From Octopus vulgaris (Eukaryota), in NCBI GenBank assembly GCA_951406725.2, contig OX597818.1, positions 98,890,001-98,954,000 on the forward strand: a stretch of 64,000 bases of DNA. The letters are read 5' to 3'. Positions 43,147 to 62,042 of this stretch are shown piece after piece; position 1 is the first letter of the stretch; every line of letters starts with the position of its first letter. A program made the position numbers.

Positions 43147-46100
43147 TGCACATATACGTATATACATACACACACACACACATAAATATATGTATGTATG
43201 TATGTATGTTTATATACACATATGTTCTTTTACTTGTTTCAGTCATTTGACTGCGGCCATGCCTGAGCAATTCCTTAAAGGGTTTTAGTCTAAGAAATCC
43301 TCCCCAGGACTTATTCCTATCAATCCCTTTTTGCTGAACTGCTAAGTTACAGGGACATAAACACACCAGCAAGTGATAGTGGAGGGACAAACGCAGACAC
43401 ACATAAATATATACATATATATATGATGGGCTTCTTTCAGTCTCTGTCAACCAAATCCACTCACAAGGCATTGGTTGGCTTGAGGCTATAGTAGAAGACA
43501 CTTGCCCAAGGTGCCACATAGTGGGACTCAACCAGGAATGATGAGGTTGGGAAGTGAGCTTCTTGCCACACACACACACACATATATATATGGTTATATA
43601 AAAAGAGAAATCTCATCAAATGAGATACTAAACCTGATATTGAAAAGTATCTATTCTGGCAATTTTACAATAATTCTTTGGCCCTAAGAAGAGATAGCAG
43701 CAGCATGGAAAGAATTAATAGTTTTTGTTTTCATTTCCACTTTATTTAATTGCTCCATTCTCTAATTATTTTTAAGTACCTGGCTTTTACTTACAAGACA
43801 TTTTTGTAAGCCAGGATTGAAGTTACAAATACATACTACTAGCAACTATATTGGTTTAAATGAATATAATATTTCTAAGATAATTTAACGAAATTTAAAA
43901 AATAACTAAATAAAAATAAGCATAGATGCTTCAGGATCCTTCATTTCTTAAATGTATAACAAAATTAAAATTGAATTCAAGAAGATTGGTTACAAAGAGT
44001 ATTTATTTTGAAATTAATTAAGCAACATATCTAACAGTTTTAGCCAAACAGTAAGGTCCAGCCATTTATGCATTGAGAGCTTAAGGTTTATAAAATAAAT
44101 AAATGAGGGAGGAAAAAAGGAGAATGAATTGCCAAGCAAATTATGAAATACTTAACAATTAATAAACACAAATACAAAAGGACATATTTGAAAGAAAAAG
44201 AAAACTTAAATGATAACAAAATTATTTAAGAAGTCAGCTTACGGCTATTATCAGAATCATCGGTACCATCATTGTCATTATCAGGGCCTGAAAATGATAG
44301 CAGTCACCAGTGTACATTTGACTAACAGACACAGTTATTTTACAATGACTTAGTTGTTAGCATAAGGAACTAACATGTATTTTTTGCACAAGAAACTTAT
44401 AAACTTAATAAAAATTATTAGTACAACTCAGACTAACAAGTACTTAGTTATTAATTAAAATAAAACCAAACTCAGAAGGAAAAAAGAACAAGAAAGAATG
44501 CACTGTTTTTTTAATATGCTGACTTTCTTGATTTTATGCACAAAGGATTTCTTACAGTGACATAATACTTCAGATAAATAAGGGAAGACTATAAACCTAA
44601 CAAGTGGGAATAAAAAATATATCATTTGTATGCTATCAAACCAAAATGCTACATCATATACAGTATTAGAAACTGTTTATCTAAGTGTACTTTGCGTTAA
44701 GTTTCATTATTCGGACAGATTTTACAATTAAGTGTTGTACAGAAACAGATTTTGAAAGAATAAAAAAATGTGTTGCTTAGTTGAGTTAGATTTAAAAATT
44801 ATTTGCATTTAAGGCCCTATTGAATACTTTAAAATACAACTTTCCCTACATTAATTAATTTTTGCTTGTTGATTTGATTCCAAATCGCCTTTTTATTGGC
44901 TAGTGTGCACATTGGATATGAAGACGATTTTAGTGTCTAAATATACTGAACATCAATTGCAACCAAAATTATATGAAGGATTTGAGAACTTGTCAATTAT
45001 ACTCATTTTAAATCTAAGCTGATTTAAAAGCTTATAGCTGAGAAATTAGTGCATTGAACATATATGAATGCTCAAAGTAACTTAGAACTTTTAAAATTAT
45101 TATCTTTTAGTAATGACGAAACTTATGCAAAAATATCCTCTGCAATTAATGGTTTATCTTTTACCATTTTTCTTCATCATCCTGCAATTTTATATTTATA
45201 AATGCATACAGCACAGGTTGAGAAAATTTCAATTGTTTGAAATGTTTTTAATAGATAAAACTATTTTATAGAATGACAAACTTGTAATTTGACACTGGTA
45301 CTTAATTTATAAGCCAGACATAATGTAGAATAAAGAGTCTTGTTCAAGAGTGAATATACCTATTATGATTCATCATAAAGGTTAAACCCAAGATATGTGA
45401 CTAACTTAAATAGGTGTAAAACATATGATTCAATGCCGAAGTGAATCTATTACATTTTGAAGAAAACTGTCAAAAATGAAAATTGAACATTCCAATTTAC
45501 ATATTCTAATTTTTTTCCTTGGTTTCTTAAAATATGTCTACAGCAATACGGTTTATTAGCCAATGAATTTAGTTTCTAAATTGTTACTGAAGCTATGGAA
45601 TATCAATTGGTAAAGACATTTAACGTATAATCTATCAGGCAATGGACTCACTATATAAGTAATAATTATCTGAACATGTATTGGTGAGTTCAAATGTTTT
45701 GATGGGAAAATATACAAGAGATAGTTACCTTATCACTTGTAAGTGTTAAACAACTTAACTGGAATAAATTGCATTCAATTTTGTCAATTACCTTTTGACT
45801 ACCTTTTGGAGGCATATTATGCATACAAAGATCTGTACAATCAATAAGAAAGGATACTTTAACTTATAGTTGCTATAAAAATAGCTTATTTCCATCAGTT
45901 GAATGAGTTGATATGTAAAATAGTGTATTTGAAATTTTGAGTGAAATATCTAAAATACACTTAAACAATATTGTTAAATATAAATATAAACATATTAATT
46001 TGGAAAGTAAGAGACAAAAGAGTGACATAGAAGAGAGAGAGGTGGGGGGATAGGGATAAATGGTTCTTTTTCCTTCTGAATTAGGTTGTACATTTAGAAC

Positions 46101-48181
46101 AATGTAACAAAAGAATAAAACAAATTACTATGTAGTAAAATATTAAAACAGAAATATTAAATAAAAATTAAAAGATAAAACTGTTTCCATGAGTATAGTT
46201 GAACTGACCAAACTGCTCTCCGTTGTGTACTGGCCAAATAAACCAATTTCAGTGAAAGTGAAATTTCTTTTTATTTCAATCCGATGTAAGACTTGCGATG
46301 TTAAAAAATTATATAAAAATTTATTTGGAAAATTTTCTTCTTGAAATTTGAATATATTTTATTTTTAATCACTAATATCTAAAGTATAGTTTTTGATATT
46401 TGTAGTCATATACGTACAATGCTCTAATTCTATGTATTTTTATAAATCCAATTAGATAAAACAGGTTCTGTGAGCTGGTTAAAATATTGACACCAAAAAA
46501 GCTGAGAAACCTCAACGGTAGTTCCTTCCTTAATCAGAATTTGAGTCTAAACAGTACAGCATAAGCTGGACTTCAACTTTGTATGAGAAAAATTATATCA
46601 AAATTCATGACATGGTGAGTCTATAAGCCCATGAGTGTAAATGTTCTTTGCTATTATTGAAGAACATACAATTATACATTACGAAAATATCTTTAATCTA
46701 AGATACAATTTTAAATTTAAGAAGAAATACAATAATTGGTTTATAACTAAGACTGCAAGAGGGAAAAAAAAATCTTTACTTGAGGAACTAAGTTTATTAT
46801 AAACAAAATAAACATCGACAAGCTTACATTCGGAATTAGAATATATTTGCTTATTCAGCTCTTTTGTAATAATTTTAAACCTGAAAAAGATTTATTTGAT
46901 GTGAAATAGCAACAGCACACTGCAGAGCTTTGCTGCAGGGAAATGGTCCAAAAAGCAGAATAATCACCGTTGTAATGTCATTCTAAAACAATATAGCTGT
47001 AAAACACTTGGTTAGAGATTAACATGGAGCTAGAAGTGAGTAATGGAACTATTTTCTTTTGTAAACCAAAGAAAGAGAAGATCATTTCATAAAACAACCA
47101 CCAAACACAAATCATGTGAAAAGAGCAACCAAATGGAAGCTCAGCTTATCACTAATGTTTCTAGGGAACATTTTAATTACTTATTTACAGTGATGGTGGT
47201 GGAATGGTAAAGTAAGTGGAGAACTCTTACAAGTTATATGTGGAGATGTTCTTCCCATTTTATTTGGAAAAAAAAAGAGAGAAAAAAAGAAAGAAATTTC
47301 ACTCAATCATTTGAAGGTGTATTAATAACTCTAATTCTCTTCTCTCCTAGCTTGCAATTTCCTTTCATGTTACAAATTATAGAAAAAATTTGGTAGCTTG
47401 GTAAGTATTTATTATGTTATCACAATAGAAAAACTTTATTATATCATACATACAAATAAATATCATACATACACACACACACATATATAAGTATTATACA
47501 TACATACATGTATGTATAATATATATAATTACATAGAAGTTTATTTTAACCTGTACATCATGTTTTTAAAATAATAATAATTTTCACATCAATTACCAAA
47601 CACATTCTGAGTGCAAATGCTGTTCTTTGGCTTATCTAGGCCTATGCTGAGAGTAAAATACAACACTGCAGATTAATAAAAGCTGTTGTTAATTTAAAAG
47701 GTGCTACCATTTATTATATCTGAAATACATAATACTGCTTCTGGGACAGATTAACTGAAACATTTGAGATTTCACAGTATTAACCATTGGTATTGTTCAC
47801 TGCAGGCACTGCAATGGCAGTGACAGAATATGAGTCAGACTCAACACATTTTTACTCTATTTACAATTCACAGCGCCATGCACATATATATATACATATA
47901 TATATATATGTGTGTGTAAATATGTGTGCGTTTGCATGTGTATGCACAAGCTATATATGAATACACATGCACACACGTGGAAGCCTCTCAGATGTACTGC
48001 ATCTATATATCACAAGGTGAAACTTTGTCATATACTGTTACATCGATTATCTCAGAATCACATTAAGGTTATACATGTCAGCAGAAAACTCAACCACTTT
48101 CATACTAACTCAATAAATAGGTTGTAATATGTTGTTTCAGTGATTAGATAATTGGAAAATCATAATCTACCGATCTATCTA

Positions 48182-48237
<56 letters not shown>

Positions 48238-60381: not shown

Positions 60382-60420
<39 letters not shown>

Positions 60421-62042
60421 CTTAGTGACTGAACATGCAGTGGCATCAGATGGACTAACTGAAACAAACCCTCACAAAGAATTGCACAACTAAGTATTGA
60501 AGAGTTTTAAACGGTTTATTTGTGAGAATGCGATTAAAGATTTGAAATGAATGGTGTTTTAATGATGTAGCAAATATGTCTGTGTTGCTTAATGATGTGT
60601 TTTATTTAGGCACAATATTGAATCAATACATAATTTGTTACTTTTGAGTTGTCTTATTAGTTCTGTTCAAACAACCTGAAGTAATCATTAAGTTCATTAT
60701 CAGAGGTATCTACGGATTTGGGCTAGATTTGAATCGCACAGCATTGGCATCTTAACTGGAGCACAATGTAGAAGTTATGGATTTCAATCAACATGACTTT
60801 GTATATTTAGGTGTAAAAATTTAATACACAGATAACTTTAAATTAATAAACTGTGTAAATTATACCAAACCCATGAGATTTTATGTAAGCTTGAATTGCT
60901 GATTTCCAACTATAATCACCACATTTCAGACACTTAGATTAAGTAACTGAAAAACCTTTGTACTTGATTATGTTGTTTTACTGCTGAATGTAAAACTGAA
61001 ATGTTTCCTATGGTTGTCTTCAAGTGCTAAGTAAAGATCCTAGGATTAGAGATCAATAAAATTTTTGAATACTTTTTATTTTAGTTGGTATTCTAACAAA
61101 ATGATATATGTGTATAAATTGTTGGAGAAGTAAAAGAAGTGTGAAACAAAATGAGAGAGAGAGAGTGGCAGAAGAAAAATTAAAGAAATAGAAATAAATT
61201 AAATCAGAATTTAAAAAACTGATTATTTATCGAATGCAGAAATACACAATTTAAAGAAAGAAATGCAATCCACAGGACAAAACAATAACAAAACAAGAAA
61301 ACAATTTTAAGAAATAGACATAAACTAAGTGAGAGAAAGATGAAGAAGAGTAAGAGGAGAGAGAGAGAGAGAGAGAGTAAAAAGCAAAAGTAGATAGAAA
61401 ACTAAGATAGAAGAGAGAAAGAAAGAGAATAGAAGGAAGAGAGAAAAACGTTTGTAATGAGAAGGAAAGAAGCTGTAAAAAAAAAAAAAAAAAGATAGAA
61501 AAGATGAAAGTAAGAGACAAAGAAGAGAGTAAGAGATACAGAGAGAAGTGGGGGGAGTAAAGAAGAGGGAAACAGAGACAGAGAACTGATAGCATATGAT
61601 TGTATTACTCACTCTTAGTGTCAGGGATACTAGTGGCAGTAGTAGAAACCGCTATCCCTGGGGGTGGAGAAATAATGGATTCAGCGGTGAGTGTAAAAAC
61701 TAGCAGCATTGAGTGCCAGCTAGTAATAGGACCATGTCAAATACACCAGTAAATATATACCAACGAGATTGCATGGGATGCCAAATTTTTATCAGGATGC
61801 TGCCCTTAATAAGTGTTACGAACATTGTCCCCAGATTATCATTTTCAATACTAATATTTATTATACTTTGTTGTCTTACCATACAACATTTTTATTTAAC
61901 ATTTTCCTCTTTATATTGGGGTTAAGAGTCACATCCTTTTAGCTACCACAAAGCAAATGTGTTTGAGAATATGCATATGTGTGTGCGTATACATATATAT
62001 ACACATTGATACATACATATATAAATATATAATGTATATATG

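What the first reader, a model, noticed from the sequence alone, without database searches (positions are those of the whole stretch)
44243..61657. Two equal-length 45-nt frame-preserving stalk microexons, 17 kb apart, just N-terminal to the TM helix
Seen: exons 61657-61613 and 44287-44243 are both exactly 45 nt, both phase 1-1, with strong AG/GT sites, but encode opposite chemistries (Ser/Thr mucin-like IAVSTTATSIPDTK versus acidic PDNDNDGTDDSDNS). Known: symmetric microexons are typical of neural alternative splicing, and stalk length or O-glycosylation modulates shedding and trans-binding of Ig-CAMs. Inference: they could be mutually exclusive or independent cassettes (four stalk states) tuning a cephalopod turtle/IGSF9-like neural adhesion receptor. 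Automated annotation would likely miss them.
Basis: partly seen in the sequence, partly recalled or inferred. Interest (0 to 1): 0.7.

Follow-up and report, generated by a model that had tools for sequence, protein, structure and literature searches.

The report
Two stalk microexons: one real, one unproven
In an octopus nerve-cell adhesion receptor gene of the Turtle/IgSF9 type, the acidic 45-base mini-exon just outside the membrane is a genuine exon that is already annotated and is also present in a cuttlefish-type transcript, while the serine/threonine-rich one remains an unconfirmed candidate.

Summary
Both 45-nt stretches are at the stated coordinates on the minus strand, with AG/GT borders, phase 1-1 and the stated peptides.

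**The gene.** It is the 3' part of the octopus orthologue of Turtle/IgSF9: Octopus sinensis LOC115211947, with five Ig and two FN3 domains, a TM helix and a 754-aa tail.

**Acidic exon, 44287-44243.** This is a real coding exon.
- It is present in RefSeq isoform X2.
- An insert of the same length sits at the same place in a cuttlefish-type spliced transcript.
- It is absent from Argonauta isoform X4, so it is probably a cassette.

Annotation did not miss it.

**Ser/Thr exon, 61657-61613.** It appears in none of the three cephalopod proteins or the 28 proteins I held. Its splice sites are stronger than those of the real exon, and about 0.1 chance cassettes of that quality are expected in this intron (post hoc). 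I put about 1 in 3 on it being used.

**Mutual exclusion.** This is not supported. The exons are not alike, both are multiples of three, and a form with neither exists.

**Unchecked.** The other 12 members of the isoform cluster could not be listed.

**Side finding.** A conserved 14-nt frame-shifting exon (31034-31021) gives a tail-less isoform.

The parts
61613..61657 (-). Candidate 45-nt Ser/Thr-rich cassette exon (phase 1-1). Unconfirmed.
   Evidence: acceptor with 15 of 18 pyrimidines plus CAG, donor GTGAGT, GC 0.47; inner codons read IAVSTTATSIPDTK; absent from P0001, P0002 and P0027 and from all 28 stored proteins; not repeated elsewhere in the window.
44243..44287 (-). Real 45-nt acidic stalk exon (phase 1-1), probably a cassette.
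   Evidence: P0001 residues 766-780 map here at 100% (15 of 15); present in O. sinensis isoform X2, absent from Argonauta hians X4; a cuttlefish-type transcript has a 15-codon acidic insert at the same place, 6 of 16 residues identical. TGC at -15 from the acceptor.
35307..35438 (-). 132-nt exon holding the last 8 stalk residues, the TM helix and the basic stop-transfer stretch (phase 1-1).
   Evidence: sequence, ctAG|TT ... TATG|GTAAGA. (P0001 residues 781-827 and P0002 residues 738-784 map here).
32388..32433 (-). 46-nt juxtamembrane cytoplasmic exon (phase 1 to 2).
   Evidence: gcAG|GA ... AGGAA|GTAAGT. (P0001 residues 825-839 at 100%).
31021..31034 (-). 14-nt frame-shifting microexon candidate. 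Its inclusion replaces the 754-aa tail by about 23 residues.
   Evidence: ttccAG|14 nt|GTGATT, with 14 of 18 pyrimidines; the shifted frame of the last exon reads KLRQNGIMGTKMEEETL then a stop; cuttlefish-type transcript P0027 ends ...DSSRKKTRKVKLRQNGIMGTKMEEETL. TGC at -10.
24845..27110 (-). Last coding exon: the 754-aa cytoplasmic tail and the stop codon.
   Evidence: ORF and acceptor. (99.7% of 755 residues to P0001). (only the last ~200 residues are conserved beyond cephalopods).

Best explanation
The window holds the 3' part of the octopus orthologue of the neural Ig-CAM Turtle/IgSF9, read on the minus strand.

The acidic exon. The ectodomain ends with FN3-2, whose exon lies beyond base 64000. 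Without inserts only about 8 residues separate FN3-2 from the TM helix. The 45-nt exon 44287-44243 is a genuine exon. It adds 15 residues, six of them Asp and none basic or hydrophobic, to this stalk. It has kept its place, length and acidic, polar make-up between octopus and a cuttlefish-type lineage, while its exact sequence drifted. That pattern is what a disordered spacer would show. It is most likely a skipped-or-included cassette.

How it probably works (inferred, not shown). Inclusion about triples the stalk length and makes it strongly negative. That would lift and loosen the ectodomain relative to the membrane. It could also change access for sheddases or cis partners.

The Ser/Thr-rich stretch 61657-61613. 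It has the right phase and very good splice signals, but no transcript or protein support. I rate it about 1 in 3 to be a rarely used or lineage-specific cassette, and otherwise a decoy. If it is used, it would add mucin-type O-glycosylation sites.

The two are not a mutually exclusive pair.
For: Shown:
- Coordinates, splice sites, phases and peptides.
- The last exon is 99.7% identical to O. sinensis LOC115211947 isoform X2.
- That protein reads ...VVVPEGPDNDNDGTDDSDNSLSALPVPAIGG..., so it holds the acidic exon.
- P0027 is an 828-aa protein from a 3687-nt contig, so it comes from a spliced transcript. It shares an 85-residue stretch identical to Acanthosepion pharaonis. It carries GPENEDDNSGHPDASF at the same place and with the same length.
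- Argonauta hians X4 goes straight from VVVPE to VSALPV. The junction codons fit phase 1: G+GC gives Gly and G+TT gives Val.
- Pfam finds five Ig and two fn3 stretches.
- The nearest named relatives are 'protein turtle homolog B' of Patella and Tachypleus, with 36% identity over 774 residues to the latter.
- The stalks of 5 other mollusc relatives vary in length and are rich in Ser, Thr, Ala, Asp and Glu.

For the Ser/Thr candidate:
- At 14 or more of 18 pyrimidines plus GTRAGT, it is the only symmetric open cassette in the whole window, both strands and all three phases.
- Its GC is 0.47, against about 0.30 for the intron.
Against: Against the cassette reading of the acidic exon:
- Inclusion and skipping were not seen within one species. 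The skipped form is from Argonauta and the included forms are from Octopus and a cuttlefish-type animal. The exon could be constitutive in Octopus and lost or missed in Argonauta.
- The order-specific similarity of the octopus and cuttlefish inserts is not significant (shuffle p = 0.195). Homology rests on place, length and composition.

Against the Ser/Thr exon:
- It is in 0 of 3 cephalopod proteins and 0 of 28 stored proteins.
- It has no TGC within 40 nt of its acceptor, unlike the acidic and 14-nt exons.
- The 180 nt upstream of it are also GC-richer, so GC is weak evidence.
- It shows no significant likeness to the stalks of other molluscs. The best of 7 gives p = 0.022, uncorrected, and that alignment falls on the FN3 end.
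- The chance estimates use thresholds set after seeing the candidate.

No data on tissue, shedding or binding exist here.
Confidence: 0.65

Rival explanations
1. One reading: both 45-nt exons are real, independently regulated neural cassettes. They would give four stalk states (none, Ser/Thr, acidic, both) that tune shedding or trans-binding.
For: Both are phase 1-1 and 3n, so all four combinations stay in frame. The Ser/Thr candidate has the best acceptor of all exons in the window (15 of 18 pyrimidines) and a GTGAGT donor. The chance expectation at that quality is about 0.10. The gene clearly uses many small inserts: P0001 differs from P0002 and P0027 by 4-, 11- and 15-residue blocks elsewhere. 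Stalks of other molluscs combine Ser/Thr-rich and acidic stretches.
Against: No sequence with the Ser/Thr peptide was found (0 of 28). Only two of the four states were seen, and in different species. Neural specificity was not tested.
Confidence: 0.25
2. The two exons are a mutually exclusive pair: exactly one is chosen per transcript.
For: They have equal length and equal phase.
Against: A form with neither insert exists (P0002). The exons are not alike: 17 of 45, and 4.6% of random 45-mers match as well. Both are 3n, so double inclusion or double skipping is not punished by a frameshift. The intron between them is 17 kb, so there is no steric block. Both have GT-AG borders. No shared or complementary selector-like sequence lies in 800-nt flanks, only a dinucleotide repeat.
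Confidence: 0.03
3. The acidic exon is constitutive in Octopus, and the Ser/Thr stretch is a chance decoy. There would then be no stalk switch, and the Argonauta form reflects exon loss or a faulty model.
For: Both forms were never seen in one species. The acidic insert is kept in two distant cephalopod lineages. About 4 chance cassettes of ordinary quality are expected in this intron. Two other such loci were found, at 44588-44556 and 38754-38608.
Against: The Argonauta protein is labelled isoform X4 of a multi-isoform gene, and its junction codon fits clean skipping. The P0001 cluster holds 13 member sequences, which I could not list. The gene shows other small optional blocks.
Confidence: 0.25

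Closest known systems
Turtle (Drosophila) / Dasm1-IgSF9 / IgSF9b subfamily of Ig-CAMs
   Same: Five Ig and two FN3 domains, one TM helix and a long tail (for the TM). The nearest named relatives are 'protein turtle homolog B'. tutl is known to give several isoforms, both membrane-bound and soluble, with isoform-specific effects (PMC3141077, passages read).
   Different: The tail is mollusc-specific apart from its last ~200 residues, which end in [MI][DE]S[DE]ML in 23 of 24 tail relatives. A juxtamembrane stalk cassette was not mentioned in the passages I read, and my search for IgSF9 + turtle + alternative splicing found 2 papers. Orthology to fly Tutl or human IGSF9 was not tested with a tree or a reciprocal search.
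NCAM muscle-specific domain (small exons 12A-12D)
   Same: A set of small, alternatively spliced exons that encode an extracellular stretch of an Ig/FN3 adhesion molecule (PMC2120321, abstract). [quoted passage not shown]
   Different: It is a different gene family and is used mainly in muscle. Those exons are reported to be used as one unit. Here one exon is acidic rather than mucin-like, and the mucin-like one is unproven.
Neurofascin isoform with mucin-like domain
   Same: An optional Ser/Thr-rich extracellular block in a neural Ig/FN3 CAM defines an isoform with its own location (PMC2121080, abstract).
   Different: It is a much larger block in the L1 family. Here the Ser/Thr block is 15 residues and unconfirmed.
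Neural microexon programme (eMIC/SRRM-dependent; recalled, not from a call)
   Same: Short symmetric exons in neuronal surface and signalling genes. From recall, TGC motifs lie close to the acceptor. Here TGC lies at -15 (acidic exon) and -10 (14-nt exon).
   Different: 45 nt exceeds the strict 3-27 nt definition (recalled). The Ser/Thr candidate has no TGC within 40 nt. Tissue use is unknown.

Membership tests
Turtle/Dasm1/IgSF9 subfamily | Ectodomain of five Ig domains followed by two FN3 domains (architecture recalled; subfamily named in PMC3141077) | tested here: met
   Pfam Ig_3 in 5 stretches and fn3 in 2 stretches in P0001, the protein whose last exons are 99.7-100% identical to the window.
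Turtle/Dasm1/IgSF9 subfamily | Single-pass TM helix and a long cytoplasmic tail | tested here: met
   a hydrophobic stretch, IGGIVGGLAFLLIAVILAIIAVII, followed by a basic stretch; a 754-aa tail exon.
Turtle/Dasm1/IgSF9 subfamily | Closest relatives outside the lineage are Turtle/IgSF9 proteins (orthology) | tested here: inconclusive
   the named hits are 'protein turtle homolog B' (Patella, Tachypleus), with 36% identity over 774 residues. These names come from NCBI's pipeline. No tree and no reciprocal search against fly Tutl or human IGSF9 was possible. PDB hits are generic Ig-CAMs such as titin, contactin and Robo.
Cassette (skipped) exon | Transcripts with and without the exon in the same species | tested here: inconclusive
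   Acidic exon: included in O. sinensis X2 and in cuttlefish-type P0027, absent in Argonauta X4. The other 12 members of the P0001 cluster could not be listed. Ser/Thr exon: inclusion never seen.
Cassette (skipped) exon | Frame kept on inclusion and on skipping (length 3n, same phase at both ends) | tested here: met
   both are 45 nt and phase 1-1, and the TM exon starts in phase 1.
Mutually exclusive exon pair | Never both and never neither | tested here: not met
   P0002 has neither insert (in Argonauta, not in Octopus itself).
Mutually exclusive exon pair | Exons are alike (tandem duplicates), or there is a device that enforces the choice (frame, steric block, U2/U12, competing RNA pairing) | tested here: not met
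   17 of 45 identical, not beyond chance. Both exons are 3n, lie 17 kb apart and have GT-AG borders; no selector-like pairing in 800-nt flanks. The intron start upstream of 64000 could not be searched.
Neural microexon | Higher inclusion in nervous tissue | not testable with these tools
   No RNA-seq or eukaryote read collection is on hand.
Mucin-type O-glycosylated stalk | Ser/Thr/Pro-rich stretch that carries O-glycans | not testable with these tools
   Composition only: 7 of 14 inner residues are Ser or Thr, plus one Pro. Glycosylation needs an experiment, and the exon itself is unconfirmed.

The most novel reading that the evidence does not exclude
The cephalopod Turtle/IgSF9 gene runs a combinatorial small-exon programme around its membrane anchor. 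Two independent 45-nt stalk cassettes, one mucin-like and one acidic, would set ectodomain height, charge and shedding. A conserved 14-nt frame-shifting exon would switch the 754-aa signalling tail off. Together these would give up to eight receptor forms from the last 37 kb of the gene.
Probability: 0.15. Interest if true: 0.55.

Novelty: new member of a known kind. Interest (0 to 1): 0.3.

Why it matters
Small optional exons near the membrane are a known way to retune neural adhesion molecules, and cephalopods are a prime case of independent brain evolution. A stalk spacer kept at exactly 15 codons between octopus and a cuttlefish-type lineage, together with a conserved 14-nt exon that removes the whole tail, would make this receptor a convenient test case for isoform-specific wiring functions outside flies and vertebrates. 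The gain is modest. The acidic exon is already in public annotation, the kind of feature is well known, and the more original half of the claim (the Ser/Thr exon and the four-state switch) has no support yet.

Tried and rejected
- **Isoform cluster.** Listing the 13 members of the P0001 cluster would have shown every annotated isoform. This is the largest gap.
- **Short-peptide comparisons.** BLASTP of the 14-residue exon peptides against P0014 and P0027 gave no alignment, because the queries are too short. I replaced it with Smith-Waterman scores against shuffles. That showed no order-specific likeness of the Ser/Thr peptide to any stalk, and only compositional likeness of the acidic one.
- **Duplicate-exon idea.** 17 of 45 identity and no flank similarity. 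Rejected.
- **Docking/selector pairing as a device for mutual exclusion.** Only a dinucleotide-repeat match was found. Rejected within the window.
- **Ser/Thr stretch as a by-product of the CT-rich tract.** Rejected. The exon has average pyrimidine content (0.53), and the tract starts about 45 nt downstream.
- **Ser/Thr stretch as part of a repeat.** No second copy in the window.
- **NCBIfam.** No family matched; it is a prokaryote-oriented library.
- **PDB sequence search.** Only generic Ig-CAMs.
- **Paper searches.** Searches for both LOC identifiers and for cephalopod + IgSF9 found nothing.
- **Not done.** I made no search with a joined (spliced) model of the window's exons. Only the last exon alone and database proteins were used as queries. 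So conservation at the DNA level in other cephalopod genomes stayed unchecked.

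
Full report
**Observation**

The window has no N and is AT-rich, with GC about 0.26-0.38.

On the minus strand, 61657-61613 is a 45-nt stretch.
- It is preceded by ...ttatttctccacccccAG and followed by GTGAGT.
- Read with two leading bases closing a codon, its 14 inner codons give IAVSTTATSIPDTK.

44287-44243 is also 45 nt.
- It is preceded by ...ctatcattttcAG and followed by GTAAGC.
- Its inner codons give PDNDNDGTDDSDNS.

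The next coding piece, 35438-35307, starts in the same phase. It encodes SALPVPA, a hydrophobic helix and a Lys/Arg-rich stop-transfer stretch.

**What the gene is**

A stop-to-stop ORF of 773 codons at 27166-24845 holds the last exon. I used it alone as the query.
- It is 99.7-100% identical to Octopus sinensis 'uncharacterized protein LOC115211947 isoform X2' (P0001, 1594 aa, a 90% cluster with 13 member sequences).
- It is 74% identical to Argonauta hians LOC106876426 isoform X4 (P0002).
- These were the only 2 hits among 4929 candidates.

A tblastn of both proteins on the window places these P0001 residues:
- 766-780 on 44288-44244 (15 of 15 identical)
- 781-827 on the TM exon
- 825-839 on 32434-32390
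- 840-1594 on 27112-24848, with 2 mismatches in 755, one of them a junction codon

Reading the borders gives these exons: 35438-35307, 32433-32388 (46 nt) and 27110-24845. Nothing in the window matches the FN3-2 exon, so that exon lies beyond base 64000.

P0001 has five Ig and two fn3 stretches (Pfam). With its residues 640-840 as query, 6 proteins were found among 1011 candidates. They include 'protein turtle homolog B' of Patella vulgata and 'turtle homolog B-like' of Tachypleus. P0001 is 36% identical to the latter over 774 residues. PDB relatives are generic Ig-CAMs.

It is not supported by a tree.

**The acidic exon is real**
- P0001 reads ...VVVPEGPDNDNDGTDDSDNSLSALPVPAIGG.... RefSeq already contains this exon, so annotation did not miss it.
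- P0002 reads ...VVVPEVSALPVPAIGG..., with no insert. The junction codons fit a clean skip in phase 1.
- A search among shorter proteins found 2 hits among 1114 candidates. One is P0027, an 828-aa protein from an unnamed source whose longest contig is 3687 nt. With introns of tens of kilobases in this gene, such a contig must be a spliced transcript.
- P0027 is 80% identical to P0001. It shares an 85-residue stretch identical to an Acanthosepion pharaonis protein, so it comes from a cuttlefish-type animal.
- Its stalk reads ...IIVPEGPENEDDNSGHPDASFSALPVPAIGG.... That is an insert at the same place and of the same 15 codons, with 6 of 16 residues identical.

The likeness is in place, length and composition. 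The order-specific score is not significant against shuffles (p = 0.195). That pattern fits a disordered spacer.

**The Ser/Thr exon is unconfirmed**

That includes all three cephalopod sequences that span the stalk.

Chance estimates:
- With an acceptor of at least 12 of 18 pyrimidines and a GTRAG donor, the minus strand from 64000 to 35439 holds 145 acceptors, 37 donors and 4 open phase-1 cassettes at 3 loci. Two of the 4 are the Ser/Thr exon with alternative acceptors. The other two, 44588-44556 and 38754-38608, look like decoys.
- The real acidic exon falls below that acceptor threshold, at 11 of 18.
- At the acidic exon's quality, about 3.95 chance cassettes are expected in this intron.
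- At the Ser/Thr exon's own quality (15 or more of 18, GTRAGT), about 0.10 are expected, and 0.003 for exactly 45 nt.
- At 14 or more of 18 plus GTRAGT, it is the only candidate in the whole window, on both strands and in all phases.

These thresholds were set after seeing the candidate, so they are indications and not tests.

Other checks:
- The exon is not repeated in the window.
- It has average pyrimidine content (0.53) and GC 0.47. The 180 nt upstream are also GC-richer.
- A 330-nt CT-rich tract begins about 45 nt downstream.
- Its peptide shows no significant likeness to the stalks of seven relatives. The best p is 0.022, uncorrected, and that alignment falls on the FN3 end.

I put the odds that it is used at about one in three.

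**Mutually exclusive or independent?**
- The two exons are 17 of 45 identical without gaps, and 4.6% of random 45-mers do as well.
- Their 60-nt flanks and 800-nt flanks share nothing but a dinucleotide repeat.
- Both are multiples of three, both have GT-AG borders, and 17 kb separate them.
- A form with neither insert exists (P0002).

None of the known ways to enforce mutual exclusion applies. If both are exons, they are independent cassettes.

**Mechanism**

Shown:
- The insert lies between the end of FN3-2 and the TM helix.
- Without it the stalk is about 8 residues.
- With it, 15 residues are added, six of them Asp and none basic.

Inferred:
- A longer, strongly negative, flexible stalk would change the height and freedom of the ectodomain.
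- It could also change access for membrane-proximal proteases or cis partners.
- The Ser/Thr stretch, if used, would add O-glycan sites.

Known parallels:
- The small extracellular NCAM exons 12A-D (PMC2120321, abstract).
- The mucin-like block that marks one neurofascin isoform (PMC2121080, abstract).
- Drosophila tutl gives membrane-bound and soluble isoforms with different effects (PMC3141077, passages).

**Side findings**
- Between 32388 and 27110 lies a 14-nt stretch, 31034-31021, with ttccAG before it and GTGATT after it. In the frame handed on by the 46-nt exon it reads KKNRK. It then shifts the last exon into a frame that reads KLRQNGIMGTKMEEETL and stops.
- The cuttlefish-type transcript P0027 ends ...DSSRKKTRKVKLRQNGIMGTKMEEETL. 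A tail-less isoform made by a frame-shifting microexon therefore appears conserved.
- P0001 also differs from P0002 and P0027 by 4-, 11- and 15-residue blocks in the ectodomain. The gene seems rich in small optional exons.

**Limits**
- I made no search with a joined model of the window's exons.
- The isoform cluster could not be listed.
- The supplements of the preprint on tissue-specific exons that includes Octopus bimaculoides are closed and may bear on this gene.
- Paper searches for the two LOC identifiers and for cephalopod + IgSF9 found nothing. The search for microexon + octopus found 4 papers, of which I read passages of one.

**Verdict**

One half of the finding is a real exon that is conserved but already annotated. 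The other half is an attractive but unsupported candidate. The kind of feature is well known.

Noticed in passing
window 31021-31034 (minus), with 27055-27110: A 14-nt exon candidate with good splice sites and TGC at -10. It would shift the last exon into a frame that stops after 18 codons, replacing the 754-aa tail. A cuttlefish-type transcript (P0027) ends with the matching peptide, so a tail-less isoform seems conserved.
   Followed up: partly
outside the window; P0001 residues about 532-535 and 634-644, and P0002 residues about 223-237: P0001 carries 4- and 11-residue blocks that the Argonauta and cuttlefish-type proteins lack. Argonauta X4 carries a 15-residue block after Ig2 that the others lack. 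These are probably further small optional exons of the same gene.
   Followed up: no
window 24848-25450 (minus), the end of the last exon: Only the last ~200 residues of the tail are conserved beyond cephalopods. 23 of 24 tail relatives end in [MI][DE]S[DE]ML. This could be a docking motif; Pfam finds no domain in the tail.
   Followed up: partly
window 57973-60351: An element inside the intron with ~390-nt inverted terminal repeats (57973-58357 and 59967-60351, 83-92% complementary). Plus-strand ORFs between them give only a weak, sub-threshold GIY-YIG match (E = 0.007). It is probably a decayed mobile element.
   Followed up: partly
window 61250-61580 (minus): A CT-rich tract (pyrimidine fraction 0.73-0.93) starts about 45 nt downstream of the Ser/Thr candidate. 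It is open in all three minus-strand frames for 68-117 codons, which shows how little an open frame means here. From recall, it could bind a pyrimidine-tract splicing repressor.
   Followed up: no
window about 26440 (minus), last exon: There is one residue difference from RefSeq P0001 within the tail: Thr in the window where P0001 has Arg, in ...SPVWT?TSPG... The window therefore comes from another individual or a very close sister species.
   Followed up: no
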